A stretch of 64,000 nt of DNA from an uncultured Chloroflexia bacterium (GTDB lineage: Bacteria > Chloroflexota > Anaerolineae > Anaerolineales > Villigracilaceae): positions 345,200 to 409,199 of the forward strand of contig CAWCBN010000010.1 in assembly GCA_963793795.1 (NCBI GenBank), read 5' to 3'. Each line of letters starts with the position of its first letter. Within the stretch, counting starts at the first letter, position 1. A model generated the notes under the pieces. The model made no database searches. It was given only the letters and a program-made list of their open reading frames with translations, and was not told where the DNA came from. The translations under genes and the position numbers were made by a program. Shown piece by piece: positions 6,260-61,447 of the stretch.

Positions 6260-7093
6260 TTATAAAAATGTCTCCAGCATGTTCCCCACCTCGACCATAT
6301 TGAAGACTGGTCCATCCACGCACACCAGTTTCTCTCCCAGGTTGCACCGCCCGCATTTTCCCAGTCCGCAGTGCATGCGCGCCTCCAGGGTGACGTAATT
6401 CCATTCGGGTAAAAATCCCATCCTTGCCAGCAATCGAGTCGTGTGATGGATCATCACCGGGGGACCGCAGGTGATGGTCGCTGTATTCCTGGATGCAGGC
6501 GAGACTTTCTCCAATAACTGTGTGATAAGGCCGGTTTCATGCGTCCAATCCGCATCCGCGTTATCCACCGTGAGGTGCAGTGAGGTATCGGGGGCGGACC
6601 GCCACTCGTCATATTCATCGGTGAATACCAGCAGGTCAGGGCGGCGGGCAGCCCACAGGATGGTCAAATGTCCGTACTCGGCGCGGTGTTCGAGTACATG
6701 CTGGATGACCGGTCGCAGCGGTGCCCCGCCAATACCGCCACCCAGTACCACCAGGTTCTTGCCCTTGAACTTGTCCATCGGGAAATGATTGCCCAGCGGT
6801 CCTCGCACCCCCACGATATCACCGTCGCCCAATTCATGCAGACCGGTTGTCACGGTTCCAAGCCTTGCCACCGCGAATTCGATCACCGGTCCCCTCTCCA
6901 CTGCATTGGCGATCCCAAAGGGAGCTTCTCCCAATCCAAAGGCCGAGACAAAAGCGAATTGTCCAGGTAGATGGTTCTGAAATGCCCTACCAGCACCGTT
7001 CAACAATTCCAGTCGAAATAACTTGATCTCAGATGCCAGGTCGCGCACCTCAACCAGTTTCGCCAGGTGGGGCATCATCGGATTCCAGCTCAT
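6260..7093 (-). CDS. FAD/NAD(P)-binding 2Fe-2S oxidoreductase subunit (sulfhydrogenase gamma / FlxA / AsrB-like)
   Basis: Ferredoxin-reductase-type fold blocks (LVVLGGGIGGAPL) and C-terminal cysteine cluster CGLGKCGRCNLGEKLVCVDGP. The start ATG overlaps the upstream stop (ATGA). Confidence 0.75.
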   Translation of the reverse strand: MSWNPMMPHLAKLVEVRDLASEIKLFRLELLNGAGRAFQNHLPGQFAFVSAFGLGEAPFGIANAVERGPVIEFAVARLGTVTTGLHELGDGDIVGVRGPLGNHFPMDKFKGKNLVVLGGGIGGAPLRPVIQHVLEHRAEYGHLTILWAARRPDLLVFTDEYDEWRSAPDTSLHLTVDNADADWTHETGLITQLLEKVSPASRNTATITCGPPVMIHHTTRLLARMGFLPEWNYVTLEARMHCGLGKCGRCNLGEKLVCVDGPVFNMVEVGNMLETFL

Positions 7094-8103
7094 CTTATTA
7101 ACTCCAGGTCTGCCAGAATTTCACTGATGTCCACACCCGCCGGGCAGAGTTCGATGCAACGACCGCAACCGGTGCAGGCAATCCCGGCACCCAGGTGGTA
7201 TTGTTCGGGAAAATACAAAACCTTGCACATGAACCTGTTGCGCAGGCGATCGCCTTTTTCCGGGCGGGCACGATGTCCACCCGCCACGCGGCGATAGTTC
7301 TCACCGGCGCAACTATCCCAGCAGCGGATGCGCTCGAACTGACCAGGTTGCAACGCTTCATCGCGAACGACAAAGCATCGGCAAGTGGGGCAAACGTATG
7401 CGCAGGCACGGCAGGAAAGGCATCGCTCCGAAATTCTCTCCCAATATTGATCAGAAAAATGCTCCTTCCACTTCTCTTTTGAAAGATTCTGAAAACCTGT
7501 TTCCGAACGCGTATGGCTGTCCTCAGTTTCCTTCCACTCCCCGCCGGGTATCAGGAAACGGCCTTTCTCCGTCACGGCTTCAACCAGAAAGCCCTCGCTG
7601 GTTTCGTACAACATGATGTCCATTCCGCTGGAGTCGTCCGGGGTGCCACCTGTCGAGGTACAGAAGCAACTGGGACCCAATTCACGGCAAGCCAGGCCAA
7701 TCAGGGTGGTATTCTGGCGCCGACGGGCATAAAAGGGATCAACAGGATGGGTATCCATGAACAGGTTGTCCAGCAGCAAGGCGCCCCGGGCATCACACGG
7801 GCGAACACCGAAGACAACCGTTTCCCATTCAGGATAATTCTCCTCAAGGGCGATTTCCTGCCCGGTCTTCTGAATGGTGAACAATCGCTCCGTTGGTGGA
7901 AAAAAGGCTTCCTTCAGAGAGAGAAGCGGGCGAGTGAACGATGTTGCTATCTCCCCGCTGGTTTTCACACGCTTGTACAGGAGAACTCCGGATTTTTTAC
8001 TGGGAGCGATCAGGTTGCGCGCGGCAGCGATCCCATCCAGCCAACCCTGCATTTCGGTCCTTGAGATAAGCCAGTGCTTATGAAGAAGCATCGCATTGCT
8101 CAT
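7090..8103 (-). CDS. 4Fe-4S dicluster subunit (sulfhydrogenase beta / FlxB / AsrA-like)
   Basis: Cluster motifs CLSCRACAYVCPTC and CTGCGRCIELCP. Start chosen at MSNAMLLHK (8103), 1 nt after the upstream stop, rather than the longer ORF start at 8181. Confidence 0.7.
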   Translation of the reverse strand: MSNAMLLHKHWLISRTEMQGWLDGIAAARNLIAPSKKSGVLLYKRVKTSGEIATSFTRPLLSLKEAFFPPTERLFTIQKTGQEIALEENYPEWETVVFGVRPCDARGALLLDNLFMDTHPVDPFYARRRQNTTLIGLACRELGPSCFCTSTGGTPDDSSGMDIMLYETSEGFLVEAVTEKGRFLIPGGEWKETEDSHTRSETGFQNLSKEKWKEHFSDQYWERISERCLSCRACAYVCPTCRCFVVRDEALQPGQFERIRCWDSCAGENYRRVAGGHRARPEKGDRLRNRFMCKVLYFPEQYHLGAGIACTGCGRCIELCPAGVDISEILADLELIR

Positions 8104-8104
8104 C

Positions 8105-9448
8105 TCAGCCTTCCTTGTACTCACCGGAAAGAACTGTAACCACCGGGGATGGCACAACATCCACCCCGGCAAGGAAACCAAATTCTTCTTCCATCACTTG
8201 CGTCATCCTGCGGTTGAGCAGGCTGATGGGGATCTCCATTGGGCAGGCACGCTCGCATTCATTGCATCCCACACATCGACCTGCCAGGTGATATGCACGG
8301 ATAAGGTGAAAAGTGCGTTTTTCATTGTTGCGAATACCCATGCCAATCCAGGTTGAATCTTCCTGCTCTGCCAGGCAGGTGGGACAGTTGCACATTGGAC
8401 ATGCCTGGCGGCAGGCATAGCAACGGATGCAGCGGTCAAATTGGGAGATCCAGAATTCCATGCGTTCAGAGGGTGCGGCCGTCATAAGCTCGGACACTTT
8501 TTCTTCACAGCAGGATGTTAAGCGGGGAATGTAACGCGAGGTGGCACCCCCGATCAAGGTGTCACATACCGTCGGAACCGCCTCCTGGCAGGTGATGCAG
8601 CGGGTCTGAAGATCTCCATCGTGGTCGCAAATCCCTTCACAGGCCACGCCCAGTACATGCAGCTGGTCGCGTTGGAACTGGTTTTCCGCCAGCATCACGT
8701 TGATCGCTTTGCTGTCACACGGCTTGACCACCACTGCCACCTTCTTGGGAGGCTCCTTGCCAGAGGCTTTCAACTTGGACGGCAGATAGGATGTCAGGTT
8801 GTTGGTCGCCTGTGGATTCCATACCAGGCGGGCGGCATCCTCAGGAGAATATGCAAACGACGGGCGCGTCCGTCCATTCCTCCCAACCTCGTACCCGATG
8901 ACGCACCCGACCTCACCATTGCCAAGCAGCTCTTTTGCCTTGGCGCGGATGGCGTCTGTTTTCCCCGCGCAGTCAGTGACGGGCATCGGGATGGAAGCAG
9001 TGATCGATGGTAGAGCCTCCATAACAGGCTCCCAGGCGCCCGGGGGAATGCGCCAGGACGCAGGTCCCAGTTGGCGGACTGATTCGGTGAACTCGGTCAC
9101 GATATGAGCGAAGTGTTCGCCCTCGGAAGCAGAGACCCAGTCCAGGCGCAGCCGTTCAGGTTCGAGCCCAACAAAGGTTAACAGGTTGTGGAGGAGAGGA
9201 AATCGTTTTGCAGCACGGTGATTGCCGGAGTCGTAATGGCATTCCCCGATGTGACAACCGAGAATGATCACACCGTCAGCCCCCTGGTCGAAGGTCCGAA
9301 TGACCAGCTCGGGGGATACACGTCCGGAACAAGGCACGCGCACCGCGCGGATATTCGCCGGGGATTTCATCCTCGCAATACCAGCAGTGTCGGCTCCCGT
9401 GTAGGAACACCAAGTGCAGAGGAAGGCGATGATCTTGGGTTCGTACAT
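8105..9448 (-). CDS. MvhD-domain / 4Fe-4S ferredoxin fusion protein (FlxD-FlxC-like)
   Basis: N-terminus IIAFLCTWCSYTGAD...VPCSGRV...GADGVIILGCHIGECHY matches the methyl-viologen-reducing hydrogenase delta subunit fold. C-terminus has CIRCYACRQACPMC and CVGCNECERACP. Confidence 0.8.
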   Translation of the reverse strand: MYEPKIIAFLCTWCSYTGADTAGIARMKSPANIRAVRVPCSGRVSPELVIRTFDQGADGVIILGCHIGECHYDSGNHRAAKRFPLLHNLLTFVGLEPERLRLDWVSASEGEHFAHIVTEFTESVRQLGPASWRIPPGAWEPVMEALPSITASIPMPVTDCAGKTDAIRAKAKELLGNGEVGCVIGYEVGRNGRTRPSFAYSPEDAARLVWNPQATNNLTSYLPSKLKASGKEPPKKVAVVVKPCDSKAINVMLAENQFQRDQLHVLGVACEGICDHDGDLQTRCITCQEAVPTVCDTLIGGATSRYIPRLTSCCEEKVSELMTAAPSERMEFWISQFDRCIRCYACRQACPMCNCPTCLAEQEDSTWIGMGIRNNEKRTFHLIRAYHLAGRCVGCNECERACPMEIPISLLNRRMTQVMEEEFGFLAGVDVVPSPVVTVLSGEYKEG

Positions 9449-9486: not shown

Positions 9487-12400
9487 TCAAGCCAGCGCGC
9501 CGATGATCTCAGCCACCAACTCGCGATCGTCAAAATGGATCAAGGTCACAGCCTTGTTTTGGCACGCGGCTGCGCACGTACCGCATCCTTTACAAAGGAA
9601 ACTGTTTACCTGTGCCACGGCATTGACCAACTCAACGGCGTGATACGGGCAGGCTGCCACACACTGCCCGCATCCGGCACATCTTTGCAAATCCACCTCG
9701 GCGATGGATGGGTCGAGGGCGATCATGCCCTGGTCCATGAGCGAGAGTGCTGCCGCCGAGGCGGCACCCGCCTGCGCCACGCTGTCTGGAATATCCTTGG
9801 GCGACTGGCATGCACCGGCAATGTAGATGCCTTCGCTGGCTGTTTCCACCGGGGCAAGCTTGGGATGCCGCTCGGAGAAGAATCCATCGCGTGTTCGGCT
9901 GATGCCAAATTTCGCCGCCACCTGCGCGGAATCCGCCTGCGGTTCGAAACCGGTCGCCAGGATGACCATATCCACATCCACGTGATCAGGCTGTCCATGG
10001 AAGGCTTCCGTCCAGGTAACTCGCAGGCCGTCATCCACGTGGGTGATATCATGCACCTTGCCGTGATGGAAGTTCACACCCATCTCTGCAGTGCGGTTGT
10101 AAAATTCTTCATATCCCTTGCCGAACGAGCGCATATCCCGATAGATCTCATGAACCTCGGCACCAATATACTCGTGGACCAATTGTGAAAACTTAAGTGA
10201 ATACATGCAGCAGGCGCGTGAACAATATTCGTTCGTGGTCGCATCGCGTGAGCCCACGCAATGGACAACAGCCACCCGTTTCGGTGTTCCCCCATCAGCG
10301 AGCAGTACTTTCCCGTTGGTGGGTCCGGAGGCATTGATCAGGCGTTCAAATTCAATGGCTGTCAGGATGTTCGCCAACTTTCCATGATTCAATTCGGGGA
10401 GGCGCGCGGGGTCAAAGTCACGAAAACCGGTCGCCAGGATGATGGTTCCCACCATAAACTCGTCATGGGTTTCTTTTGCATTGTGATCGATGGCTCCCCG
10501 GTCGCAGGCGGCTACGCATTCCAGGCACTCACCACAAGTCCCGCAGCGAACGCAGCGTTCAGCCTCGATGAGTGCTTCCTCTTCTGTAAGGGTCAGATCC
10601 ACCTCATTAAAATTGTGATAACGTTGCGCCAGCGGAATGGTGTGAATGCCAACCCTGTGTTTCCCGGAGGCCTCCCCATGAGCGATGCGCGTCCGCACTT
10701 CGGACTCGGTCAACGCCACGGTAGGTGGAAGGCTTGGCTCACTAATACCCGCAGCTCCCCGCAGGTAGCGATCCATGCAACGGGCGGCATGATGACCTTC
10801 ACCGATCGCATCCACCACGTAGAAGGTGGAACCGCGGTGAACATCACCGGCAACAAACACCCCCGGGAGCGTGGTCATCATCTCCTCATCGGAATCGATC
10901 CCGTTCCTGGCAAGCTTGACCAGCCCATCCTTAGGGAGAAATGACAGGTCGCAACCCTGACCGGTCGCCCAGATGACGATATCCGCCGGTAACACGTGCT
11001 CACTGCCGGGAAGTTCGTCGATCAGGATGCGCCCTTTTTCGTCGTAACCATGGTATTCCGTGCGCACGCATTTCACGCCGGTGACCTTGTCGTCCTCAAT
11101 GAGGATCTCCTTGAACATGGTGGCGCCGCACATTTTCACGCCTTCCTCTTCGGCGATCTCCACCTCCCACTCAAATCCGGTCATTTCACCCTTGGGCTTG
11201 CGGAAGATCATGCGGCATTCCCGTGCGCCGATGCGGATTGCGGAACGGGAACAGTCGAGGGCAACATTTCCGCCGCCGATGACCGCCACCCGTTTTCCGG
11301 TGAGATCGGGCGGGGTGCCAAGACATACCTGTTTGAGAAAAGGCAGGCTGAGCAGGTTGTCGGGATGATCCTTGCCCGGAATGTCCACCTTCTTGGCGAT
11401 ATGTGCACCCGAGGCAACCAGGACTGCATCAAATGGGTGAGCCGATGAACCCAGCCCGCCTGACAATAACCCGGGGATGTCATCGATCCAGGTATTGAGT
11501 TGCAATTCCACGCCCTCATCGAGGATCTGCTGGATCTCCCAATCGAGCATTTCATAGGGCAGGCGGTGGGGTGGGATGCCGACCCGGATCATGCCGCCTG
11601 CTTTCGGCTGGGCATCAAACACCTGCACCGCATGTCCGAGCCGCACCAGGTCAAGGGCAGCAGTCAGACCTGCCGGTCCGGCTCCGATCACGGCGACCTG
11701 TTTCCCCGTCGGCGTGGGTTTATGCTGGAAGGGAGTCCCGACGATGGACTTGTCGCGCATGTTCGGAAGCAGCTCACGATGAGCGTAAGCCCAATCCGCC
11801 ACGAAGCGCTTGATGCCCATGATATTGACGGGTTCATCCACCTTGCCGCGCGAGCAGGCAGCCTCACAGTTGCGGTTGCAAACACGTCCGCACACCGATG
11901 GGAAGGGATGCTCGCGGCGGATCGCCCAATAGGCATCCGCATAACGTTTCTGCCGGACCAGGGTGATATAACCCATGGCACGCTGGTCGGTGGGACAGGC
12001 AGCCCGGCACGGCGCCACACCCTTCTTGTCAATCACAAACGCACCGGGCACCGCCTGGGCTGAAAACCGGTAGGCTGCCTTGCGATTTGAGAGGCCGCGG
12101 TCAAACTCGTTGCTGACCTCCACCGGGCAAACGGAGGCGCAGTTGCTGCAGCCGGTACACTTGGTTTCATCCACGTAGCGCGGCTTGCGGCGGACCCGTA
12201 CCTGGAAATTTCCCACATAACCTGAAACAGACTCGATCTCGCTGTAAGCCAGGAGCTTTATTTTTGGGTGGCGTCCCACGGACACCATTTTCGGTGTAAG
12301 TATTCAGGCCGCACAGTCGAGCGTTGGGAAGGTCTTATACAGTTGGGCCATGTGCCCACCGATGCTCGACTCCCGCTCAACGAGATAGACCTGCTTCCCG

Positions 12401-12897
12401 GCGTCTGCCAGTTTTAGAGCCGCTTCGATACCCGCAATACCTCCACCGACGACAAGCGTGGCGGGAGTCATCTGTACCTGGCGCATGTCCAGCGGGTGAT
12501 GATAATGTACACGCTGGACCGCGGCAGAGACCAGAGAGCATGCTTTCGTGGTCGCCTGTTCCCGGTCCGCGACCACCCACGAGCAGTGTTCGCGGATGTT
12601 TGCCATCTGGAAGAAGAAAGGGTTCAACCCTCCCTCGGCGCAAGCCCGGCGAAAGGTCGGTTCATGCATCAGGGGCGAACAGGAGGCCACCACCACCCGG
12701 TTGACGCCCAGGTCCAGGATGTCCTGCTTGATGAGATCCTGTCCCGGGTCCGAGCACATGTAGGTGTAGTCGCGGGCAACGACCACGTTTTCCAATTTGC
12801 GGGCAAAATCGGTCACCGCGGCAACATCCACAGTCGCGGCGATATTCGTCCCGCAATGACAGACATAAACACCGGTTTTTATCTTGGAAAGATTCAT
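9487..12897 (-). CDS. hdrA: HdrA-like flavoprotein with inserted GltD/NfnB-like NAD(P)H module; predicted selenoprotein (TGA at 12304-12306 read as Sec)
   Basis: ORFs 12304..12897 and 9487..12288 are in the same frame, separated by TGA plus 5 codons (TFPTLDCAA-U-ILTPK-MVSVGRHP). HdrA hallmarks: VYVCHCGTNIA, GGGIAGIEAAL, C-terminal CAGCGQCVAACP / CKGCGTCAAAC. The internal module has PCRAACP, VCGRVC, VAVIGAGPAGL and VAVIGGGNVALD. Confidence 0.85.
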
Positions 12898-12967
12898 GCA
12901 CTCTCCTGTTGACTGCCTGGCAGCTTACCTGAGCACACTTGTCATTTGACTCACGCGGCGAACCGGC

Positions 12968-14953
12968 TCATGCCAGGGATAAAATACCATCAATCTCCGC
13001 CATGAGCTGGTCATTGGTGAAGCCGTTCTGGACGGCTGCACCAGCCGGACAGGCGGCAACGCAGGCTCCGCATCCCTTGCACAATACCTCGTTAACCTGC
13101 GCGACTTGTTTTCCATTCCATTCGACCATCGAGACAGCGCCATAAGGACACAGCCCTTCGCAGGTGTGACAGGCGCCACATTTTTCTGCAACGATGTATG
13201 AAGTGAACGGCTCCAGGTCCACCGTACCATGATCGAGAAGGGAGATTGCCGCGGCAGCTGCTGCTCCGCCGTGGGCGACACTATCCGGGATGTCCTTCGG
13301 TCCCTGGCATGTGCCCGCCAGGAAAATACCGTCACTCATGGTTTCCACCGGTGCCAGCTTGGGGTGCTTCTCCAGGAAGAATCCATCCGGGCTGCGGCTG
13401 ATCCCAAACCGGGCACCCACCTCGTGCTGGTCGTCCTGGGGTTCCATGCCGGTGGAAAGGACGACCATGTCCACGGCCGTCTTGAGCGTTTGCCCGCTAT
13501 ACACATCCCTGGCAATGACCGCTAACCGCCCATCAGTCTGCTCGACGCGAATGTCGCCATCGAAGCGGGCGAAATGAACTCCATGGTCCTCGGCGCGGTG
13601 GTAAAAGTTCTCGTAATCCTTTCCAAAGGCGCGCATATCCCGGTAGAACTCCACCACTTCCGCACCCACGTATTCCCTTACCAAGGTGGCTAGTTTTAAG
13701 GAATACATGCAGCAAACGCGTGAGCAATATTCGTTTTCAACTCCACGTGAGCCGACACAATGCAGGATTGCCACCTTCCTTGGTTTTTCTCCATTCTTGA
13801 GCAACACCCTGCCGCTTGTCGGACCGCCGGTATTGATCAGTCGTTCCATCTCCATGCCGGTGAAAACATTCGGCAAGGTGCCATAGCCATATTGAGCAGC
13901 CCGGTGCGGGTCAAAGTCGCTAAAACCGGTCGCCAGGATGATCGTGCCAACTTCGATCTCCTCGTGTTGTTCCACCTGTTCAAAGTCGATCGCCCCCACC
14001 GTGCAGAATTTTTCACAGGCGCGGCATTTCCCGGACTTGAAATAGGCGCAGTTCACGGTGTCGATGACCGGGACGCGCGGCACCGCCTGCGGGAATGGGT
14101 AATAGATGGCGGCACGGTTGCCCCACCCAAGGTCGAACTCGGAGGGGATCTTCTTCCACGGGCATTTATCAATGCAGGTTCCGCAACCGGTGCACAAGGA
14201 CTCGTTCACATAGCGCGGCTTGCGGCGAACGGTCACGGTGAAGTTGCCCACATAGCCGGCAACGTTTTCGACCTCGCTGTAGGTCATCAGCTTGATGTTG
14301 GGGTGGCGTCCCACGGACACCATCTTGGGGGTGAGTATTCAGGCTGCGCAATCGAGGGTTGGAAATGTTTTGTACAGGCGCGACATGTGCCCGCCGATGG
14401 ACGGTTCGCGCTCCACCAGGGTTACCTGTTTGCCCGAATCAGCCAGGCGGAGGGCTGCCTCGATCCCGGCGATCCCCCCTCCGACAACCAGCGCGGCCTG
14501 CTTCAGCCCCACCTGGCGCATTTCCAGCGGCACCTGCCAGCCCACGCGCCGCACAGCAGCCGCCACCAGCGCCTTGGCTTTCTCCGTTGCGGCAACGGGA
14601 TCCGCAGTGACCCACGAACAGTGCTCACGGATGTTGACCATCTGGAAGAGGAAGGGATTTAAGCCTGCCTCGGCGCAGGCACGCCGGAAGGTGCCCTCAT
14701 GCATGTTCGGACTGCAGGAGGCCACAACAATGCGGTCCAACCCTTCCTTGCGGATATCTTCAGCAATGAACGCCTGGCCGGGGTCTGAGCACAGGTAGGC
14801 ATAGTGGCGGGTAACGGTCACATGGGGCAGGGTAGCAGCAAATTGGGTGACTGCTTCCACATCCACAGTTGCGGCAATGTTCGTGCCACAGTGGCAAACA
14901 TAAACGCCGACGCGGGGCGAACCCTGCTTCGGCGCGGGTTGGGAGATCGTCAT
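12968..14953 (-). CDS. hdrA: Heterodisulfide-reductase subunit A-like flavoprotein; predicted selenoprotein (TGA at 14339-14341 read as Sec)
   Basis: ORFs 14339..14953 and 12968..14323 are in the same frame, separated by TGA plus 5 codons (TFPTLDCAA-U-ILTPK-MVSVGRHPNI). Canonical HdrA layout of about 661 aa: CHCGTNIA, GGGIAGIEAAL, inserted ferredoxin CTGCGTCIDKCP, C-terminal CGACHTCEGLCP / CKGCGACVAACP. AAGGAGA lies before the ATG. Confidence 0.9.
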
Positions 14954-17720: not shown

Positions 17721-18196
17721 GAACGAATGGGATGTCACTGCCAATTCCGAGAGATCGCATTTGAGGAACATCGAGGAACAATTAATCTTAAGCTTTCCTG
17801 GTGGAAAGAACGCTTGAATGGTCCCATGGTTTGATAGGAATTCGGAGAATGGCTCGGTGAGGAAGGAGGTCAGATTCATGGTTGCAGGAGAGAAAAAAAG
17901 ACGGCAGGGAAGAAACAGCCTTCCCGTGCCGATGGAGGGATTATAACACAAATGTTCTAATTGGATAAAGGGGAAAAAACACTCATTTGCTTTAAGTACT
18001 AATCGAAAATGCTTTCTTCAACAGATTGGCTGGGTGAGGGCACACCAGCAGGGCTTCCCCGTTCAGGGATGTCAGACCATCAGTACGTCTTGGACAAAAA
18101 GCAGGTTATTTTCATTCCCATTCTTTTATATCTATACTGTAGGGGATGCTATATAATGATCAGATAGCAATCTTAATTGACACGTGAAAGGATTTC

Positions 18197-19367
18197 ATGG
18201 ACAGATTATTTAAACAACCATTTGACGACATTGGGGAGAATGAATTAAGGATATTGTTGATAGAAAAGTTCGAGAATATGTTAGTTTGGATTATAAACAA
18301 TTGTATAGCAATAATCATAAGGGGATCGTAGATCTTCTTACAGATGTTACTGCAATGGCAAATTCTAGGCGGGGTATATCATTATTGGCATTGAAGAAGA
18401 TTTCAGGCGCATCCGATGGTACTCCTAAATGTATTGTTGGTATCGAGAATGGAGATATTGAAGCCAATCGGATACAAAATGTGTGTTTTGATTCTATTGA
18501 TGAAATAATTATTGGCCTTCGTGTCCGAGACATTCCATTAAGCAATGGAAAGCATTGTGTAATTATCCAAATCCCCAATAGTGTAAAAAAACCTCATATG
18601 GTGTTGTACGAAACACCGTTTATTTTCTACCAGACATGGAAGATCGAATATAAGAATGGACATGAAACAGGTTAGGACATGGTGATTAGCATGACTTCAT
18701 ATCAGACATCATTACAATCATTTATTGAGAACCGTGTGAAGGAAAATTTAGAATTCGCTCACTCTGTCCCTTTATTCTATTCATGGCCACTCCAATTTAC
18801 GTGGGCGAGAAAAGTTGGATCCCCTTCAAGAAAAATATCGGAACCTTTTTGATAATGAATATGAGCAGTATATACAAGATTATCAATATGATGGTGTGTA
18901 TGCAGGTAAAACCCATCCCAGGATATTTGGCATTGAAGGAATAATCCAAATCTCCATCTCCAGATAACATTCCTCTGAAGCGTTTACGACTTTATAGAAA
19001 TGGGCATTTCGAATTTTACAGAAATAATGTTCCTTATCCAGATGAGAATCGGCCCCAAAACGAATGCCAATATCCCCGTATCTCATTGTTGCAGAATCAT
19101 TAAATTTCTTATCTGTTATGCGACAAGTAATTACGATTTCCGAAATTACCGATCCTTTAGCGATTACATTAATCTTGGATCTGTATGTCGAGACTTCAAT
19201 TGCACGATAGATATAGATTGCAATCTGAAAATTTAGTATGGAATGATATATTATTACAAATAGATATAACCGTGACCGATCTTGATAAATTGGAAGAAAT
19301 TGCTTCTTATATAATGGATCGAATATACAATTCCTATGGATATGAAAAAGAACCTCCACTTCGATGA
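18197..19367 (+). pseudogene. AlbA_2 (Schlafen-like putative DNA-binding) domain protein, at least 5 frame disruptions
   Basis: Pieces found in three frames: MDRLFKQPFDDIGENELRILLIEK / VREYVSLDYKQ...VTAMANS / AGYIIIGIEED / DGTPKCIVGIENGD...GKHCVIIQIPNSVKKPHMV / RHGRSNIRMDMKQVR / ...EEIASYIMDRIYNSYGYEKEPPLR. This follows the AlbA_2 pattern (EFK...AfaN..GG.iiiGv...P). One break is a shortened A-run. Confidence 0.5.
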
Positions 19368-20081
19368 AAATATGAAATTCAAATTAAGAGATGGTATCCG
19401 TTTAGATAAGTAATTAGAAGAAATCAATCAATTAAGACAGGCTGGGCCGGAAAAGGGCGGTGTAATCCTGGCAAAATGGCTATTCGAGGTGATCATGAAG
19501 GGATGGATAGGATCGTATAATTTGTGAATTTTATTGGTTGGAAAATGTGTCGGGTATTTATGCTTATCCTTTACACTTGTCCTAGCACAGGGGTAGGATA
19601 TATAATGAATTAACCAAATATCTAGAAAACCGCTTTGCTATATTTAGCGAAAAGGAAATCCTATGTCCTGTTTGAGTGGAATACTATTTATCTTAGGATT
19701 GCCTCTTCGTACCGTTTACGCCCTCCAGAAAAAACTGAACAAAAGAATAAGTTATGGCTCGTTATAGGTATAATTTTCATAGCCGTGGGGGGTGTTTTAT
19801 TATTCTTCAAATGACCAAAACTGCACAAATTCTTGCGGTGATCCTAAGAATTGCATAGATTTGCATTAATTCGATATCTTTACTCAATCGAACAAAAAGA
19901 CCGATGCTTCTCGATACTTTTTGTCCTGACTCCTACTATAAGAGGTAAATACTCAGTATTCATTGTAGAAATGCTAGAATTGCAATGTAGATCAACCTTA
20001 CAAATCGCCTTGGATAACTACTATTATCGTATAATTATTAGTTACAATCGAGGGATTAGTTTTCTTCATCGAAGTAAACTT

Positions 20082-20664
20082 ATGAACGTTTATCGCCAAA
20101 AACTACTAAATACGGTCTTGTTCTTTGCTATAGAAATGAAATATCTAAAATTAACTAAGTTGATGAAGCTTCTTAACTTCTTCGACTTTGAGCACTTTAA
20201 GGAACAGGATATCCATCAATAGGTTTAGAATATTATGCCTTTGCCAAAGGTCCAGTCCCAAAGAAATTCTGGTTAGAAATAAAAGACGGAGAACCCCCAG
20301 CGGACATGCTGGATAAGTGGCAATTTTAGAAAAACGGCACTGGGATTTTAGAAAAAAGTAATTGAATTTATTCCAAAGCCTAAAGTGCTAGTGGACTACA
20401 CGTATATCATGTGGTCGTGAAGAAAGCAATACTTGAAAAGTTGGCGTTTATTTACAAAGACGCGGATGCTGCAACAATGTCGAAAATTTCACATGAAGCT
20501 GAGAAGCCTTGGGAAATTACAATAAAGGAAAAAGGCTTAAACGCAGAGATTGATTATATGTTAGCTATTGACGAGAGCTCTCCAATAAAACGTGAAGAAG
20601 GTCGGAAAATTTGCATGACCTTTTTGAAATTATGAAAGCGTTTGATATTGAACCTGCGAAATAA
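20082..20664 (+). pseudogene. Panacea (DUF4065, SocA-like) antitoxin-domain protein, at least 3 frame disruptions
   Basis: MNVYRQKLLNTVLFFAIEMKYLKLTKLMKLLNFFDFEHFKE / GYPSIGLEYYAFAKGPVPKKFWLEIKDGEPPADMLDKWQF matches the DUF4065 core (K.qKLLYf.Df.h...G..itG..Y.A...GPVP). The C-terminal piece is ...SHEAEKPWEIT... / MKAFDIEPAK. Confidence 0.65.
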
Positions 20665-20667
20665 AAT

Positions 20668-21094
20668 ATGCCACAACCCGGGGATATTATCTTTTTTTCT
20701 CTAAGGAGTATACATTTGAAGATGGGAGTAAAGGGGATAAATTGTTTGTTGTCCTAAATACTCCTGATCTTGAAGAACCTTGTTCTGTTTTAAAAAACCA
20801 CCTCTCTCAACCAGCAAGGTATTTTCATTGTGTCAGGGGATGCAATAGTAATGACAGGTGTTTTTTTGCCCCGAAATCATGGCAGGTGTGCTTTAAAGTG
20901 GATACCTATATTCAACTTCCACAGATAATTGAATTTCCAGCTGCCAATCTTTTAAGAGATCGTTTTGCGGAATTATTAATTTCATACCCCCGCTTTCAGC
21001 TGATTGTCTTGCACAACTAAAAAGCTGTTTGGCAACTTTCAAGGATGATATATCTCAAACCCATTGGGCATTTATTTATAAAGCGAAATCATAA
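20668..21094 (+). pseudogene. Putative toxin partner of the Panacea antitoxin (unassigned family), frame-disrupted
   Basis: ATG lies 3 nt after the antitoxin stop. Sequence MPQPGDIIFF / SKEYTFEDGSKGDKLFVVLNTPDLEEPCSVLK..SQPARYFHCVRGCNSNDRCFFAPKSWQVCFKVDTYIQLPQIIEFPAANLL / ...LSADCLAQLKSCLATFKDDISQTHWAFIYKAKS. Assignment is by position only. Confidence 0.35.
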
Positions 21095-21119
21095 TCTCTC
21101 TTTTTTATTTGAGACATTG

Positions 21120-21341
21120 AATTCTATTTTGAAACGATTGGAAGGAATTCCGACTATAAAGGTGGCTCGGGTTGGCAAATCCGGAGCGATTTATTGCTTG
21201 TTATTCTTGCGCCGATTTTGAAGGGATACGTCGGAAAGGGCAACGACGGTCATACTGGAAATGCCCTAGGTGTAATCCACTTGCACATCAACAATTACAC
21301 CATCTAAAACGATCCCAGCAGGAATATACTCTGGTAAGCAT
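21120..21341 (-). pseudogene. Ghost 5' fragment of a second, low-GC comM/yifB homologue (about residues 1-75)
   Basis: Minus strand reads MLTRVYSC / AGIVLDGVIVDVQVDYT*GISSMTVVALSDVSLQ / AINRSGFANPSHLYSRN. The intact comM has [67 protein letters not shown]. The fragment contains a stop and frameshifts. Confidence 0.6.
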
Positions 21342-21469
21342 CAGAAATGGTTAGATGTGGATAGACTTAATCAATGGGGGAAAATATAACAAAGTCGAAA
21401 GCAAGTATTAAATTAGTTTATGGAGATTTACAATTGTCCCACCATGGAAAATTTGAGTACTTTAGGCGC

Positions 21470-21589
21470 ATGATGAAAGTATCCCCCTCCCGGAAAAAAT
21501 CGAATAAAGGAAAAACTCCTTTCATTACCTTATGCGAGGCAGGGAAAATAAGGCATGAATTAGCGGAAAAACAATCGGTAGAAAGCTGG
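21470..21589 (+). pseudogene. Ghost 5' fragment of a hexosaminidase-like gene
   Basis: AGGCGCATGAT..ATCCCCCTCCCGGAAAAAATCGAA at 21465-21515 mirrors the true hex start at 25285-25335 (MINIIPLPEKIE). Similarity extends upstream to CACCATG (21438 vs 25257). The fragment is truncated by the 3' end of the STAND gene. Confidence 0.4.
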
Positions 21590-27161: not shown

Positions 27162-28532
27162 TTATAGAGCAGCAGTACCGTAGAGCTGGTTGCGCATCTG
27201 CACCACCTGGCGGCGGACCTTGTCGTCGCGTTCGAGCAGGTCGGCGATCTTCTCGCAGGCGTACATGACCGTGGTATGGTCACGCCCACCCAATGCCTGC
27301 CCGATCTGGGGCAGTGAGATGTTGGTTTCGCGCATCAGGAACATGGCGATCTGGCGCGGCAGGGCAACCTCACGGGTGCGCTCCGGGCTGAGCAGGCGGC
27401 TCACAGACAGGTTGAAGGTGCGGGCGACCACGTCGACCACGGCATCCGGTTTGACGTCACCACGCTGCGGCAGGAGGTCAGCGAGAGCCGTCTCCGCCAG
27501 TTGGGGGGTGAGGGACATACCGCTCAGTTCTGCAAAGGCGACGATACGGTTCAGGGCGCCTTCCAGCTCGCGGATGTTGGACTGAAACCTGCGGGAGATG
27601 AACTCCATGATCTCGGGCGGTATCGTCCGCCCCAGGCGCTCGCATTTTGTGCGCAGGATGGCCAGGCGTGTCTCGAAATCAGGCTGCTGGATGTCGGCAG
27701 TGAGACCCCACTCGAAGCGGGAACGCAGGCGCTCCTCCAGCGTGTACAGGGATTTTGGAGGCCGGTCGGAGGACACAATGATCTGCTTGTTCTGCCCGTG
27801 GAGAGTATTGAAGGTATGGAAGAATTCTTCCTGCGTGGATTCTTTCCCGGCGATGAACTGGATGTCATCCACCAGCAGCACATCCGCGGAGCGATATTTC
27901 TCGCGGAAGGCCTGGGTGGTATGGGTGCGGATGGCATTGATCAGGTCGTTGGTGAATTCCTCGGACGAAACATAAAGAACGTGCAGCCCGCGCTCCTGGC
28001 AGGCATTGCCGATGGCGTGCAAGAGATGGGTCTTGCCGAGACCCACCCCTCCGTAAAGGAAGAGCGGATTGTAGGCCGTGGCGGGTTGTTCGGCAACAGC
28101 CTGTGAGGCAGCATGCGCCAGGCGGTTGTTGTGCCCGACGACAAAATTATCAAATGTATAGCGGGGATTGAGGGTTACCGATGTATGGCGAGGAGCTACC
28201 GTTTCGACGGCAGATGAAGTGTCCGGGTCAGATCCTGGAGTGGAACCTTTTTCATTACCATTTCCAGCATTGACCACAAAACACACGTCCACTTCCCTGT
28301 TCATGATCCCCTTCAGGACACTGGTCACCGTACTGGCGAGGCGGTTATCCAACCAATCGCGGGCATAGGCATTGCGCACGCCAATGGTGAACAATCCTTC
28401 TTCGAAGGTGACCAGTTGGGTATCACGAACCCAGGTATCGAAAGATGCTTTCGGCATCTCCATCTGGAGCTGGCCCAGAGCCGACTGCCAGGCAACAACG
28501 GCGTCCATCTTCTCCTCCAATAAACCGTTCAC
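27162..28532 (-). CDS. dnaA: Chromosomal replication initiator protein DnaA
   Basis: Intact 456-aa ORF with NPLFLYGGVGLGKTHLLHAIG (Walker A), LLVDDIQF (Walker B), SNIRELEGAL, and C-terminal DNA-binding helix GGRDHTTVMYACEKI. GGAGGAG lies before the ATG. Confidence 0.97.
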   Translation of the reverse strand: MNGLLEEKMDAVVAWQSALGQLQMEMPKASFDTWVRDTQLVTFEEGLFTIGVRNAYARDWLDNRLASTVTSVLKGIMNREVDVCFVVNAGNGNEKGSTPGSDPDTSSAVETVAPRHTSVTLNPRYTFDNFVVGHNNRLAHAASQAVAEQPATAYNPLFLYGGVGLGKTHLLHAIGNACQERGLHVLYVSSEEFTNDLINAIRTHTTQAFREKYRSADVLLVDDIQFIAGKESTQEEFFHTFNTLHGQNKQIIVSSDRPPKSLYTLEERLRSRFEWGLTADIQQPDFETRLAILRTKCERLGRTIPPEIMEFISRRFQSNIRELEGALNRIVAFAELSGMSLTPQLAETALADLLPQRGDVKPDAVVDVVARTFNLSVSRLLSPERTREVALPRQIAMFLMRETNISLPQIGQALGGRDHTTVMYACEKIADLLERDDKVRRQVVQMRNQLYGTAAL

Positions 28533-30752: not shown

Positions 30753-32027
30753 ATGAGCACTTCCCGAATTCCTGGTTTTTATATCCTCCCTCCCGACCAA
30801 CGGTTGGACAAGCTGACCAGCGCAGCAGGACTCCCCGATGGGCAACTTTCCGCACTTCGTTCGAACCTGAGCCCCGAGCAGGCTGATCACATGGTCGAAA
30901 ATTCTGTGGGTACCTTCAACCTTCCGCTGGGGATCGGCTTGAATTTCGTGGTGAACGGACGCGAGGTGCTGGTCCCGATGGCGATCGAAGAGCCCTCGGT
31001 CATCGCCGGGGCATCCTTCATGGCAAAACTTGCGCGTGCCGGGGGTGGGTTCATTGTCACCACCGATGAGCCGCTCATGATCGGACAAATGCAGGTCCTG
31101 GATTTGTCTGACATCGATGGCGCCCGCCTGGCATTGCTGGAGCACAAGGTCGAATTGCTCACTGCAGCAGACGAGATCGACCCCATATTGAAGAAATTGG
31201 GCGGCGGGGCACGTGACCTGGAAGTACGCATCATCCCCGAATCCCCGATTGGACCCTTCCTGGTGGTGCACCTGGTCTACGATGTGCGCGATGCCATGGG
31301 CGCCAACGCAATCAACACCGCCTGCGAGACACTTGCGCCGCGCATCGAACAGATCACCGGCGGGCGGGTGCACCTGCGCATCCTCTCCAACCTGGCTGAC
31401 CGGCGCCTGGCCCGCGCTCACTGCACCATCCCGGTGGCGGACCTGGCATTCGACGATTTTACCGGCGAACGGGTGCGCGATGGCATCATCGAAGCCTGGG
31501 CATTTGCGGCTTCTGACCCATATCGCGCCGCAACGCACAACAAGGGCATCATGAATGGTGTGGACGCGGTGGTCATCGCCACGGGCAATGACTGGCGCGC
31601 CATCGAGGCCGGGGCACACGCCTACGCGGCACGCAGCGGACGTTACACCAGTCTCTCCACCTGGGGCAAGGATGAGAATGGCAACCTGGCAGGCACGTTG
31701 GAATTGCCCATGGCAGTGGGCATCGTTGGCGGGGCGACCAGGGTGCACCCGGCAGCCAAAGCCGCGCTCAGGATGATGGACATCCAAAGCGCCAGGGATT
31801 TGGCCGGCATCATCGCCGCCGTGGGGCTGGCGCAGAACCTGGCTGCCTTGCGTGCCCTGGCCACCGAAGGCATCCAGCGCGGGCACATGACGCTGCATGC
31901 GCGCCAGGTGGCAATCGCCGCGGGTGCTGGCGCTGATCTCGTCGAAAAGGTCGCTGCCCAAATGGTGGCGGAGAAGGCCATTCGTCTCGACCGGGCTGAA
32001 GAGATATTGCGCTCCATGACTTCATAG
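30753..32027 (+). CDS. mvaA: Class II (bacterial-type) HMG-CoA reductase
   Basis: Intact 424-aa ORF with ENSVGTFNLPLGIGLNFVVNG, MAIEEPSVIAGAS, DAMGANAINT, ATHNKGIMNG and GTVGG-like IVGGATRVHP blocks typical of class II HMGR. Confidence 0.92.
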   Translation: MSTSRIPGFYILPPDQRLDKLTSAAGLPDGQLSALRSNLSPEQADHMVENSVGTFNLPLGIGLNFVVNGREVLVPMAIEEPSVIAGASFMAKLARAGGGFIVTTDEPLMIGQMQVLDLSDIDGARLALLEHKVELLTAADEIDPILKKLGGGARDLEVRIIPESPIGPFLVVHLVYDVRDAMGANAINTACETLAPRIEQITGGRVHLRILSNLADRRLARAHCTIPVADLAFDDFTGERVRDGIIEAWAFAASDPYRAATHNKGIMNGVDAVVIATGNDWRAIEAGAHAYAARSGRYTSLSTWGKDENGNLAGTLELPMAVGIVGGATRVHPAAKAALRMMDIQSARDLAGIIAAVGLAQNLAALRALATEGIQRGHMTLHARQVAIAAGAGADLVEKVAAQMVAEKAIRLDRAEEILRSMTS

Positions 32028-32084
32028 TCCCAAACGTGATTACTGACTTGGAATCCTATTCCTCCTGATAAGGAGAATTCTTTA

Positions 32085-33155: not shown

Positions 33156-33256
33156 TCCGGCACCAGGCAACAGGCAACCAGGAAAGAACCCTGGTTGAAT
33201 GGCTGGTCACAGGCGAGAAGACGAAAAGAAAGACCTATTGATCAAGAGGCAAATTC

Positions 33257-50856: not shown

Positions 50857-50880
50857 AGATTTTTATGTGTTCTTCTTTGA

Positions 50881-59489: not shown

Positions 59490-59685
59490 TAGCAACTCCT
59501 TGATATCAGATAAATCAGAGAGCAGGGAACAGTTCAATTCTCTTCCAATGTTATCAGGTTGTATCAGGAATTTCGGACAATTCGGTAAATAGTATTTGTG
59601 TGAGAGGAGCCTGGTTCGTTTGCTCCTTGTTTGCTGCGTTTGAGGTAGGCAATGTAACCATTAACATGCGAACAATTCGTGACTT

Positions 59686-61137: not shown

Positions 61138-61147
61138 ACCTGCCTCC

Positions 61148-61420: not shown

Positions 61421-61447
61421 GTTTTTAACGCATACCTATTCATAGCT

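What the first reader, a model, noticed from the sequence alone, without database searches (positions are those of the whole stretch)
12286..12312. In-frame UGA on the conserved DCxxC cysteine of the large HdrA paralogue: predicted selenocysteine
- The ORF track splits this gene at TGA (minus strand, 12306-12304).
- The two ORFs are in the same frame and are separated by exactly five sense codons: ...KTFPTLDCAA-TGA-ILTPK-MVSVGRHPKI.
- In Cys-type HdrA this stretch reads DCxxCIL.PKM, so the stop falls precisely on the second cysteine.
- HdrA is an established selenoprotein family: Sec-type HdrA occurs in Methanococcus and in some deltaproteobacteria.
- The joined CDS 9487..12897 is 3411 nt (1137 codons including the stop).
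- A random nonsense mutation at this exact codon, repeated in the paralogue, is very unlikely.
Basis: partly seen in the sequence, partly recalled or inferred. Interest (0 to 1): 0.75.

Follow-up and report, generated by a model that had tools for sequence, protein, structure and literature searches.

The report
Selenocysteine codons in two HdrA genes
Two neighbouring flavoprotein genes (HdrA and its large HdrL-type paralogue) of an Anaerolineae-like bacterium each carry an in-frame UGA that almost certainly encodes selenocysteine. This is a correct call, but it is an ordinary new example of a selenoprotein family that has been known for a long time.

Summary
On the minus strand, the large HdrA paralogue (9487..12897, HdrL type) has an in-frame TGA at 12306..12304. 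The small HdrA (12968..14953) has one at 14341..14339. Both read DCAA-TGA-ILTPKM.

- **Position:** the TGA falls on the second Cys of the DCxxC motif. This is Cys197 of the solved Methanothermococcus HdrA, and the residue (X197 in PDB 9SFI) that a 2026 cryo-EM study names Sec197 in Methanococcus maripaludis HdrA.
- **Conservation:** the same TGA occurs in 161 distinct sequence contexts from Anaerolineae/Chloroflexia assemblies and metagenomes. Orthologous five-gene operons with TGC/TGT also exist.
- **SECIS:** an 8-bp hairpin with a GUG loop lies 24 nt downstream and meets all four published bacterial SECIS criteria. Its stem codons are frozen at synonymous sites. The loop codon and flanking codons vary freely, and Cys-type orthologues vary at the stem codons. 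A few sequences carry compensatory changes.
- **Stop usage:** TGA is an ordinary stop for 17 of 39 genes in the window, so the code is not reassigned.
- **Not tested:** no selA, selB, selD or tRNA-Sec lies in the 64 kb.

Verdict: predicted selenoproteins, a new member of a known kind, of low surprise.

The parts
9487..12897 (-). Large HdrA paralogue (HdrL type): an HdrA with an inserted NfnB/GltD-like NAD(P)H-flavin module. It is 1136 residues with selenocysteine at residue 198.
   Evidence: Translation has a single internal stop. Pfam finds Fer4_20 at residues 295-373 and Pyr_redox_2 at 400-698, inside HdrA-like flanks. The insert matches NfnB chains 4YLF_B and 5JCA_L at E=1e-62. NCBIfam finds HdrA models plus an NAD(P)-binding PRK12771 match. 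Cys-type orthologues are 1132-1136 aa. A Shine-Dalgarno-like AGGAGA lies upstream of the ATG at 12897.
12304..12306 (-). UGA, predicted selenocysteine codon of HdrL (C-A-A-U motif).
   Evidence: It aligns with Cys197 of 5ODC and X197 of 9SFI. It is TGA in every Anaerolineae/Chloroflexia homologue recovered from the genome scan.
12269..12287 (-). Predicted bacterial SECIS hairpin of HdrL: UGGUGUCC-GUG-GGACGCCA, at nt 20-38 counted from the U of UGA.
   Evidence: MFE hairpin; coordinates verified. It has an 8-bp stem, a 3-nt loop starting G-U, 24-nt spacing and -11.3 kcal/mol. It is the only structure conserved in the alifold of 32 sites. Stem codons are invariant at synonymous sites.
12968..14953 (-). 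Small HdrA paralogue, 661 residues with selenocysteine at residue 205.
   Evidence: Translation. It matches 5ODC_A at E=1e-219 over residues 12-657. Cys-type orthologues are 657-681 aa. A Shine-Dalgarno-like AAGGAGA lies upstream of the ATG at 14953.
14339..14341 (-). UGA, predicted selenocysteine codon of HdrA.
14304..14322 (-). Predicted SECIS hairpin of HdrA, identical in sequence to the one in HdrL.
8105..9448 (-). MvhD/VhuD-like (FlpD) iron-sulfur protein with an extra C-terminal Fe-S domain. It is Cys-type, with no internal TGA.
   Evidence: Pfam FlpD at residues 6-128, E=4e-51. NCBIfam VhuD and HdrA2 C-terminus. The same gene order is seen in L001, L017, L018 and L020.
7090..8181 (-). 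ShyB/HydB/AsrA-like iron-sulfur subunit. The real start is probably downstream of the listed TTG, because the listed ORF overlaps the mvhD-like gene.
   Evidence: Pfam Fer4_22. NCBIfam sulfhydrogenase beta and AsrA. Orthologues are 337-347 aa.
6260..7093 (-). ShyC/HydG/AsrB/PyrK-like FAD/NAD(P)-binding [2Fe-2S] subunit.
   Evidence: Pfam NAD_binding_1 plus DHODB_Fe-S_bind. NCBIfam hydrogenase gamma and AsrB.

Best explanation
Both UGAs are selenocysteine codons. During translation of the hdrA and hdrL mRNAs, an 8-bp hairpin with a G-U-N apical loop lies 24 nt after each UGA. Its stem starts 16 nt after the UGA. It acts as a bacterial SECIS element. It recruits SelB-GTP-Sec-tRNA(Sec) to the ribosome, so the UGA is read as Sec instead of stop.

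The products are full-length selenoproteins of 661 and 1136 residues. Each has a C-x-x-U motif in the thioredoxin-reductase-like FAD domain. This is the same position as Sec197 of M. maripaludis HdrA, where a Cys-Sec selenylsulfide has been proposed to relay electrons between FAD and a [4Fe-4S] cluster.

The two proteins are encoded with an MvhD-like, a ShyB/AsrA-like and a ShyC/AsrB-like subunit. Together they look like a soluble NAD(P)H-linked HdrA-type flavin/iron-sulfur complex, probably electron-bifurcating or confurcating, without HdrBC.

Shown here: the position of the TGA, its conservation, the RNA-level constraint, translation of the intervening codons, and homology. Inferred: that Sec rather than another residue is inserted, that the genome carries the sel machinery, and the enzymatic role of the complex.
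For: 1. **Cys/Sec column.** The TGA sits on the Cys/Sec column of HdrA. All full-length homologues matched have DC[AS][AS]C. It aligns with Cys197 of 5ODC and X197 of 9SFI_A. The depositing paper calls that residue Sec197.
2. **Conservation.** There are 32 TGA sites in 15 assemblies plus the window, in both paralogues, while the one deltaproteobacterial locus has TGC.
3. **Cys-type orthologues.** Operons with the same five-gene order encode uninterrupted proteins of 657-681 and 1132-1136 aa.
4. **SECIS criteria.** The hairpin meets all four published bSECIS criteria (PMC13188914): a 3-nt loop, G then U first, an 8-bp stem, 24-nt spacing and -11.3 kcal/mol. Only about 2% of the 2000 TGA trinucleotides in the window are followed by an equally good hairpin.
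5. **RNA-level selection.** Stem codons are V7 GTG in 154/154, S8 TCC in 158/161, G10 GGA in 158/158 and R11 CGC in 148/151. The loop codon V9 uses all four Val codons (H=1.39 bits), and flanking 4-fold codons have H=1.2-2.0 bits. In seven Cys-type orthologues the same codons have H=1.45-1.58 bits and the hairpin is lost. In the 32-site set the four stem codons are the four lowest-entropy codons of 21 degenerate codons, which has probability 1/5985 under a simple rank argument.
6. **Pairing register.** 98.8% of pair cells are paired in register, against 25-61% when the register is slid. G22-C36 changes to A-U in 3 distinct sequences, and 3 others have an alternative 7-bp hairpin with a GGU loop.
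7. **Intervening codons.** The five codons between the TGA and the next ATG change almost only synonymously, with one Thr-to-Ser exception in 32 sites. No Shine-Dalgarno sequence precedes that ATG, whereas both true starts have one.
8. **Stop usage.** TGA terminates 17 of 39 genes in the window, including hdrA and hdrL themselves.
9. **Lineage plausibility.** SelB and Sec-type formate dehydrogenases are reported in Anaerolineales single-cell genomes (PMC4959059). tRNA(Sec) is reported in Chloroflexi (PMC5389517). Chloroflexota are represented in BSepDB.
Against: - **Machinery not seen.** No selA, selB, selD or tRNA-Sec was found in the 64-kb window or in about 1 Mb of related loci. The rest of the source genome could not be read, so the machinery is not demonstrated for this organism.
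- **Stem nearly invariant.** Compensatory evidence rests on only 6 of 161 sequences.
- **Loop constrained by coding.** The G and U of the loop are also fixed by the conserved Val codon, so loop conservation is not independent of protein constraint.
- **No curated match.** No Rfam family matches the element.
- **Assembly quality.** The assembly has indel errors elsewhere, so the raw sequence is not flawless.
- **No experiment.** There are no experimental data for selenium incorporation.
Confidence: 0.92

Rival explanations
1. The genes are naturally split. UGA terminates translation, and the ATG five codons downstream re-initiates. HdrA and HdrL would then each be made as two polypeptides that assemble, and the second Cys of the motif would be dispensable.
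For: Gene callers annotate the pieces as separate proteins. P0005 is a 451-aa database entry identical to the C-terminal piece, and about 20 related clusters start at MVSVGRHP. An ATG lies only five codons after the stop. Split hdrA_N/hdrA_C arrangements are reported in Deltaproteobacteria (PMC1794560).
Against: - The five codons between the stop and the ATG keep the ILTPK peptide of Cys-type homologues and change almost only synonymously in 161 contexts, so they are translated.
- No Shine-Dalgarno motif precedes that ATG, unlike the true starts.
- That Met is itself a conserved internal residue of all Cys-type HdrA.
- Termination and re-initiation does not explain the synonymous-site freeze of a hairpin placed at SECIS distance.
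- The stop falls exactly on the residue that is Sec in the M. maripaludis enzyme.
Confidence: 0.03
2. UGA is recoded with the help of the hairpin, but to cysteine rather than selenocysteine. This would use a SelB-like factor and a tRNA(Cys) with a UCA anticodon, the selC*/selB* system. Another possibility is near-cognate read-through.
For: A selC* tRNA(Cys)-UCA with a second selB copy has been described in some Deltaproteobacteria and Nitrospirae (PMC5389517). Nothing in the window identifies which tRNA decodes the UGA. Cys is functional at this site in orthologues.
Against: - That system has not been reported in Chloroflexota in the papers read.
- Canonical tRNA(Sec), SelB and Sec-type formate dehydrogenases have been reported in the phylum.
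- Keeping a costly UGA plus SECIS in more than 160 sequence contexts only to insert Cys has no obvious advantage over TGC, which sister lineages use.
Confidence: 0.03
3. The TGA is a sequencing or assembly error, a recent nonsense mutation, or a sign that the genes are pseudogenes.
For: The window has apparent single-base indels in essential genes. pheS is split at a CCCCGGG run near 60590, and pheT, a DUF2298 gene and an MTHFR gene are also split. Base-level quality is therefore imperfect.
Against: - The same TGA is present at the same codon in both paralogues here.
- It is also present in 15 independent assemblies, including contigs with short-read assembler names (k141_...), and in over 100 metagenome contigs.
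- Both reading frames stay open and conserved on both sides.
Confidence: 0.01
4. UGA is reassigned genome-wide to a sense codon, as in Mycoplasma (Trp) or Gracilibacteria (Gly).
For: None beyond the two in-frame TGAs.
Against: - TGA is the most frequent terminal stop in the window, used by 17 of 39 genes with family support, including hdrA and hdrL themselves.
- Only these two of the 61 internal TGAs with open frames on both sides have homologous sequence continuing across the TGA.
Confidence: 0.01

Closest known systems
Selenocysteine-containing HdrA of Methanococcus maripaludis (PDB 9SFI/9T1S; Sec197) and its Cys-type counterpart in Methanothermococcus thermolithotrophicus (PDB 5ODC; Cys197)
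   Same: There is full-length homology: E=1e-219 to 5ODC_A and 5e-192 to 9SFI_A. The C-x-x-U/C motif sits in the same thioredoxin-reductase-like FAD domain, and the UGA aligns exactly with residue 197. An MvhD/VhuD-like partner is encoded next to it.
   Different: - The host is bacterial, so the SECIS lies inside the coding sequence right after the UGA. In archaea it lies in the 3' UTR (PMC13188914).
- No HdrB/HdrC (CCG-domain) genes and no hydrogenase or formate dehydrogenase genes are in the cluster or elsewhere in the window.
- The substrate is therefore unlikely to be CoM-S-S-CoB.
HdrL (HdrA/glutamate-synthase-small-subunit fusion) selenoproteins HdrL1 and HdrL3 of Desulfobacterium autotrophicum HRM2; HdrABC/HdrL of Syntrophobacter fumaroxidans
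   Same: It is a large HdrA-like protein with an NAD(P)H-binding GltD/NfnB-like module, followed by an mvhD gene. It contains Sec in D. autotrophicum, and a tandem hdrL/hdrA locus exists there (PMC2702500; PMC5947623). The window protein shows the same domain make-up.
   Different: - The lineage here is Anaerolineae-like Chloroflexota.
- The operon partners are ShyB/AsrA-like and ShyC/AsrB-like subunits, rather than DsrABC or HdrABC.
- I did not align the D. autotrophicum sequences, so identity of the Sec position with HdrL1/L3 is assumed, not tested.
Consensus bacterial SECIS element (bSECISearch model of Zhang and Gladyshev, as summarised in PMC13188914)
   Same: All four criteria are met: a 3-9 nt apical loop and a 4-16 bp upper stem, a G in the first two loop positions followed by G or U, 16-37 nt between the UGA and the loop, and MFE of -7.5 kcal/mol or lower.
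   Different: - It is a minimal hairpin without a conserved lower stem or internal loop.
- It is almost invariant in sequence across two paralogues and 161 contexts, because it overlaps the conserved peptide MVSVGRH.
- Binding to SelB has not been tested.

Membership tests
Selenoprotein HdrA family (Sec-type heterodisulfide reductase subunit A-like flavoproteins) | Full-length homology to HdrA | tested here: met
   E=1.1e-219 to 5ODC_A over residues 12-657. NCBIfam HdrA/HdrA2 models match at 1e-108 to 1e-152, below their equivalog cut-offs, as expected for non-methanogen homologues.
Selenoprotein HdrA family (Sec-type heterodisulfide reductase subunit A-like flavoproteins) | In-frame UGA aligned with the column that is Cys in Cys-type members and Sec in known Sec-type members | tested here: met
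   DC[AS][AS]C in all full-length homologues matched. Cys197 in 5ODC. X197 in 9SFI_A, called Sec197 by the depositors.
Selenoprotein HdrA family (Sec-type heterodisulfide reductase subunit A-like flavoproteins) | UGA conserved in orthologues, with the reading frame conserved on both sides | tested here: met
   32 sites in 15 assemblies plus the window and 161 distinct contexts overall. The intervening codons ILTPK evolve synonymously.
Selenoprotein HdrA family (Sec-type heterodisulfide reductase subunit A-like flavoproteins) | SECIS element immediately downstream of the UGA | tested here: met
   Hairpin at nt 20-38 after the UGA. It meets the four published criteria, shows synonymous-site constraint absent from Cys-type orthologues, and has a few compensatory changes.
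Selenoprotein HdrA family (Sec-type heterodisulfide reductase subunit A-like flavoproteins) | Genome encodes selA, selB, selC (tRNA-Sec) and selD | not testable with these tools
   None is in the window or in about 1 Mb of related loci (ARAGORN; tblastn with E. coli SelA/SelB/SelD). The rest of the 484-kb source contig and of the genome could not be fetched. The literature supports the trait in Anaerolineales and Chloroflexi.
Selenoprotein HdrA family (Sec-type heterodisulfide reductase subunit A-like flavoproteins) | Selenium actually incorporated at the site | not testable with these tools
   This needs 75Se labelling or mass spectrometry.
HdrL (large HdrA / GltD-NfnB fusion) | HdrA N-terminal and FAD domains, an inserted NAD(P)H-binding GltD/NfnB-like module, and an HdrA C-terminal part with ferredoxin domains | tested here: met
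   Pfam layout. The insert matches NfnB (4YLF_B, 5JCA_L) and GltD structures at 1e-46 to 1e-62. NCBIfam finds two HdrA stretches flanking PRK12771/gltD models.
HdrL (large HdrA / GltD-NfnB fusion) | Followed by an mvhD-like gene | tested here: met
   The FlpD/VhuD-like gene 8105..9448 lies 38 nt downstream. The same order holds in L001, L017, L018 and L020.
Canonical HdrABC CoM-S-S-CoB heterodisulfide reductase | HdrB and HdrC (CCG-domain catalytic subunit) encoded with HdrA | tested here: not met
   No CCG-domain protein appears among the ORFs scanned across the window, or in the gene lists of the orthologous operons. The proteins are HdrA-like flavoproteins, not a demonstrated heterodisulfide reductase.
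Consensus bacterial SECIS model | 3-9 nt apical loop, 4-16 bp upper stem, G in the first two loop positions, 16-37 nt from the UGA to the loop, MFE of -7.5 kcal/mol or lower | tested here: met
   Loop GUG (3 nt), 8-bp stem, 24-nt spacing, -11.3 kcal/mol at both sites. Criteria are taken from PMC13188914.

The most novel reading that the evidence does not exclude
The five-gene module has two Sec-flavoproteins (HdrA and HdrL) followed by MvhD-like, ShyB/AsrA-like and ShyC/AsrB-like subunits, and no HdrBC. It could be an uncharacterised NAD(P)H-linked electron-bifurcating complex that is widespread in sediment and soil Anaerolineae. More than 120 metagenome contigs carry the Sec form.

The C-x-x-U selenylsulfide would be the functional relay next to the bifurcating FAD. 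Closely related Sec-type and Cys-type operons co-exist, at 75-77% protein identity. They would then be a natural matched pair for testing what the Cys-Sec pair of HdrA does. The 2026 M. maripaludis structure paper explicitly leaves that question open.
Probability: 0.25. Interest if true: 0.5.

Novelty: new member of a known kind. Interest (0 to 1): 0.2.

Why it matters
**Annotation.** The public record splits each gene into two ORFs. The 451-aa fragment P0005 is identical to the C-terminal piece. Reading the UGA as Sec restores two full-length redox enzymes. It also marks the organism as a selenium user.

**Biology.** This adds an Anaerolineae clade to the known Sec-HdrA and Sec-HdrL lineages. 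It also supplies a very clean SECIS example, with frozen stem codons beside a freely varying loop codon. It provides Sec/Cys orthologue pairs that could help test the proposed selenylsulfide relay in HdrA-type bifurcating enzymes.

**Limits.** It does not change any concept. HdrA has been listed as a selenoprotein family since the first prokaryotic selenoproteome surveys.

Tried and rejected
- **Curated RNA families.** Rfam at gathering threshold over the window, and at E up to 10 over 12150..14450, gave no SECIS-like family. It found only a T-box elsewhere and two chance hits.
- **tRNA-Sec.** ARAGORN found none in the window or in 141 related loci. Unusual 8/4 tRNA(Sec) forms might be missed.
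- **Sel proteins.** tblastn with E. coli SelA, SelB and SelD against the window and all loci gave no hits.
- **Source contig.** Exact look-ups of P0005 and of the MvhD-like protein found nothing on record. The cluster look-up gave no accession or name. The organism is therefore inferred only from relatives at 74-82% identity, which are Anaerolineae, Anaerolineales or 'Chloroflexia' MAGs.
- **Gene conversion between the paralogues.** I looked for it as an explanation of the identical TGA-plus-hairpin cassette. The identical-codon fraction is only mildly raised around the site (0.60-0.65 against 0.17-0.70 elsewhere in the N-terminal 350 residues), and the Cys-type pair shows similar or higher values. 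There is no clear signal.
- **Direction of Sec/Cys conversion.** A neighbour-joining tree of the N-terminal 275 residues separates HdrA from HdrL, with Cys-type orthologues next to or within each Sec clade. It has no support values, and several long-read MAG sequences are frameshifted. The direction is unresolved.
- **Extended lower stem including the UGA.** This was considered because single-sequence folds suggested one for HdrL. Alifold over 32 sites conserves only the 8-bp hairpin, so it was rejected.
- **Other selenoprotein genes in the window.** None was found. The MvhD-like gene, whose family is often Sec-containing, is Cys-type here.
Full report
**1. The observation**

The minus strand reads GAC TGT GCG GCC TGA ATA CTT ACA CCG AAA ATG GTG TCC GTG GGA CGC CAC, with the TGA at 12306..12304. 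The ORF list shows 12304..12897 (197 aa) and 9487..12288 (933 aa) in one frame. Translating 9487..12897 gives 1137 codons with this single internal stop.

The neighbouring gene 12968..14953 has the same DCAA-TGA-ILTPKMVSVGRHP, with the TGA at 14341..14339. A scan of every in-frame TGA with at least 60 open codons on both sides lists 61 sites. Only these two have homologous protein sequence continuing across the TGA.

**2. What the genes are**

The small gene is a full-length HdrA homologue. It matches Methanothermococcus thermolithotrophicus HdrA (5ODC_A) at E=1.1e-219 over residues 12-657.

The large gene has the same N-terminal and C-terminal parts. It carries an inserted Fer4_20 plus Pyr_redox_2 module at residues 295-698. 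This module matches NfnB and glutamate-synthase small-subunit structures (4YLF_B, 5JCA_L, 2VDC_G) at 1e-46 to 1e-62. That is the 'HdrL' architecture first described in Desulfobacterium autotrophicum (PMC2702500).

Three genes follow on the same strand:
- an MvhD/VhuD-like protein with an extra Fe-S domain (8105..9448);
- a ShyB/HydB/AsrA-like Fe-S protein (7090..8181);
- a ShyC/HydG/AsrB-like FAD/NAD(P)-binding protein (6260..7093).

No CCG-domain HdrB/HdrC is present in the window. The proteins should therefore be called HdrA-like flavoproteins, not a heterodisulfide reductase.

**3. The TGA falls on the Cys/Sec column**

Of the 120 best database homologues, the full-length ones that match the motif read DC[AS][AS]C-ILTPKM. 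The closest relatives (80-85% identity, about 20 clusters) are truncated entries starting MVSVGRHP. They were called from the ATG after the same stop.

In 5ODC the aligned residue is Cys197. In 9SFI chain A the aligned residue 197 is the non-standard X. 9SFI is the M. maripaludis Hdr-Vhu-Fwd model. Its authors describe Sec197 as forming, with a cysteine, a selenylsulfide-like bridge between cluster A3 and the FAD. They state that the role of this Cys-Sec pair is unresolved (PMC13518236).

**4. Conservation of the TGA**

A genome scan returned 14 loci. Thirteen are from Anaerolineae, Anaerolineales, 'Chloroflexia' or Chloroflexi MAGs at 74-82% identity, and one is deltaproteobacterial. Together with one ENA contig and the window, there are 32 sites in both paralogues. 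Some genomes have a third copy. All 32 have TGA at this codon, and the deltaproteobacterial locus has TGC.

Combined, there are 176 sites and 161 distinct 108-nt contexts.

Orthologous operons with the same five-gene order exist with TGC/TGT. They encode uninterrupted proteins of 657-681 and 1132-1136 aa. That matches the joined lengths here (661 and 1136 aa). This rules out a sequencing error, a recent nonsense mutation and pseudogenes. The window does contain apparent single-base indels elsewhere.

**5. The downstream RNA element**

Both sites are followed by the identical hairpin UGGUGUCC-GUG-GGACGCCA, at nt 20-38 counted from the U of UGA. Its window coordinates are 12269..12287 and 14304..14322.

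The published bacterial SECIS model requires four things (PMC13188914):
- a 3-9 nt apical loop and a 4-16 bp upper stem;
- a G in the first two loop positions, usually followed by G or U;
- 16-37 nt between the UGA and the loop;
- an MFE of -7.5 kcal/mol or lower.

Here the loop is 3 nt (G-U-G), the stem is 8 bp, the spacing is 24 nt and the energy is -11.3 kcal/mol. About 5% of the 2000 TGA trinucleotides in the window have some hairpin passing these criteria, and about 2% have one this stable. The hairpin alone is therefore only suggestive.

The comparative signal is much stronger. In 161 contexts the stem codons are effectively frozen:

| Codon | Location | Usage |
|---|---|---|
| V7 | stem | GTG 154/154 |
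| S8 | stem | TCC 158/161 |
| V9 | third base is the third loop nucleotide | GTG 94, GTT 49, GTC 16, GTA 2 |
| G10 | stem | GGA 158/158 |
| R11 | stem | CGC 148/151 |

Flanking four-fold codons have 1.2-2.0 bits of synonymous entropy. In seven Cys-type orthologues, which encode the same or a very similar peptide, the stem codons vary (1.45-1.58 bits). The equivalent window folds at only -2.8 to -9.4 kcal/mol.

In register, 98.8% of pair cells are paired, against 25-61% with the 3' partner slid by 1-3 nt. Three distinct sequences have G22-C36 replaced by A-U. Three more have a different 7-bp hairpin with a GGU loop at the same place. Alifold over 32 sites conserves only this hairpin, and a lower stem including the UGA is not supported. 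No Rfam family matches.

**6. Alternatives**

- **Termination and re-initiation.** The five codons between the TGA and the ATG keep the ILTPK peptide and change almost only synonymously. No Shine-Dalgarno motif precedes that ATG, whereas AGGAGA and AAGGAGA precede the true starts.
- **Genome-wide reassignment.** This is excluded, because TGA ends 17 of 39 family-supported genes in the window, including both hdr genes.
- **Hairpin-dependent insertion of Cys.** A selC*/selB*-like system is known from some Deltaproteobacteria and Nitrospirae (PMC5389517). It cannot be excluded without the genome, but nothing points to it.

**7. What could not be tested**

No tRNA-Sec, selA, selB or selD was found in the window or in about 1 Mb of related loci. 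The source contig could not be retrieved.

Published work reports the following:
- Sec-specific elongation factors and Sec-type formate dehydrogenases in Anaerolineales single-cell genomes, and a SelB gene in Anaerolinea thermophila (PMC4959059);
- tRNA(Sec) of the 8/4 type in Chloroflexi (PMC5389517);
- selenoprotein-rich Chloroflexota in BSepDB (PMC13326102).

The trait is therefore plausible for the lineage, but it is not shown for this genome.

**8. Comparison with what is known, and novelty**

HdrA is among the first recognised prokaryotic selenoprotein families. It occurs in Methanococcales, Deltaproteobacteria and Clostridia (PMC1794560; PMC13188914). HdrL selenoproteins and tandem hdrL/hdrA loci are described in D. 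autotrophicum.

What is particular here is the host clade, an Anaerolineae-like lineage, and the operon partners. The SECIS is also near-invariant and shared by two paralogues. I found no paper describing Sec-HdrA in Anaerolineae, but large databases may already hold these entries. I file it as a new member of a known kind. The interest is low for a specialist, with some value for annotation and as a clean Sec/Cys comparison set.

The direction of Sec/Cys conversion and any gene conversion between the paralogues remain unresolved.

Noticed in passing
window 60083..61149 (-), junction near 60590: pheS is split into two overlapping ORFs in different frames. Pfam tRNA-synt_2d profile positions 1-91 fall in one ORF and 94-246 in the other. 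At the junction the sequence CTGCGTACGCATACCTCCCCGGGCAGATCCGCGCCATGCGT reads LRTHTSP, then loses the frame in a CCCCGGG run. This looks like a one-base indel in an essential gene, so probably an assembly error.
   Followed up: partly
window 56899..59537 (-); 42283..44845 (-); 62734..63871 (-): Three more genes look frameshifted. pheT has its tRNA_bind N-part separate from the B3_4/B5 body. A DUF2298 membrane protein has profile positions 2-142 and 169-488 in two ORFs. An MTHFR gene has profile positions 2-98 and 99-262 in two ORFs. Together with pheS, this suggests indel errors typical of long-read assemblies.
   Followed up: partly
window about 17950..21500: There is an AT-rich island, with GC 0.34-0.39 against 0.55 for the window. 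It lies between the Mg-chelatase-like (ComM/YifB-type) gene and a TPR/AAA gene cluster. It contains only short, fragmentary ORFs. One (18286..18675 +) has a weak AlbA_2/Schlafen-like match (E=5e-6). It may be a degraded foreign insertion.
   Followed up: partly
window 61169..61428 (-): A T-box leader (Rfam RF00230, 94.7 bits, just above the gathering score of 93) lies directly upstream of pheS. This is consistent with tRNA-sensing control of the pheST operon.
   Followed up: no
window 27162..28532 (-): A dnaA gene is present, with the DnaA_N, Bac_DnaA and Bac_DnaA_C domains. The window may lie next to the chromosomal replication origin. The flanking intergenic regions were not examined for DnaA boxes.
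   Followed up: no
window 30753..34423 (+): A three-gene set encodes HMG-CoA reductase, an HMG-CoA-synthase-like protein and a thiolase. It looks like the upper mevalonate pathway. Long spurious ORFs lie on the opposite strand.
   Followed up: no
window 42283..53091 (-): A cluster encodes large membrane proteins: DUF2298 (1284 aa, plus a second, split copy) and two PMT_2-type glycosyltransferases. Two methyltransferases and a GT4 glycosyltransferase follow. This is probably a cell-envelope glycosylation locus.
   Followed up: no
L010 (2478, 6150, 8132), L011 (6913, 10589, 12588), L087 (three pattern matches): Some related genomes carry a third HdrA/HdrL-like copy with the same TGA and the same hairpin. 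The Sec-type module has therefore been duplicated repeatedly in this lineage.
   Followed up: partly
L011, L014, L015 (MFD-named MAG contigs): The HdrA/HdrL reading frames in these loci contain 3-7 extra stops within 275 codons around the site. This points to frameshift errors in these assemblies. They gave long branches in the tree and should not be used for evolutionary inference.
   Followed up: no
window 12307..12315 and 12301..12303; same positions in the paralogue: Codons flanking the UGA also show reduced synonymous variation in the genome set: TGT 30/32, GCC 30/32 and ATA 31/32. Cys-type orthologues use TGC and ATC/ATT. The bias weakens in the larger metagenome set (ATA 105, ATT 51, ATC 5). 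It may reflect a local context effect on UGA decoding, or simply shared ancestry.
   Followed up: partly
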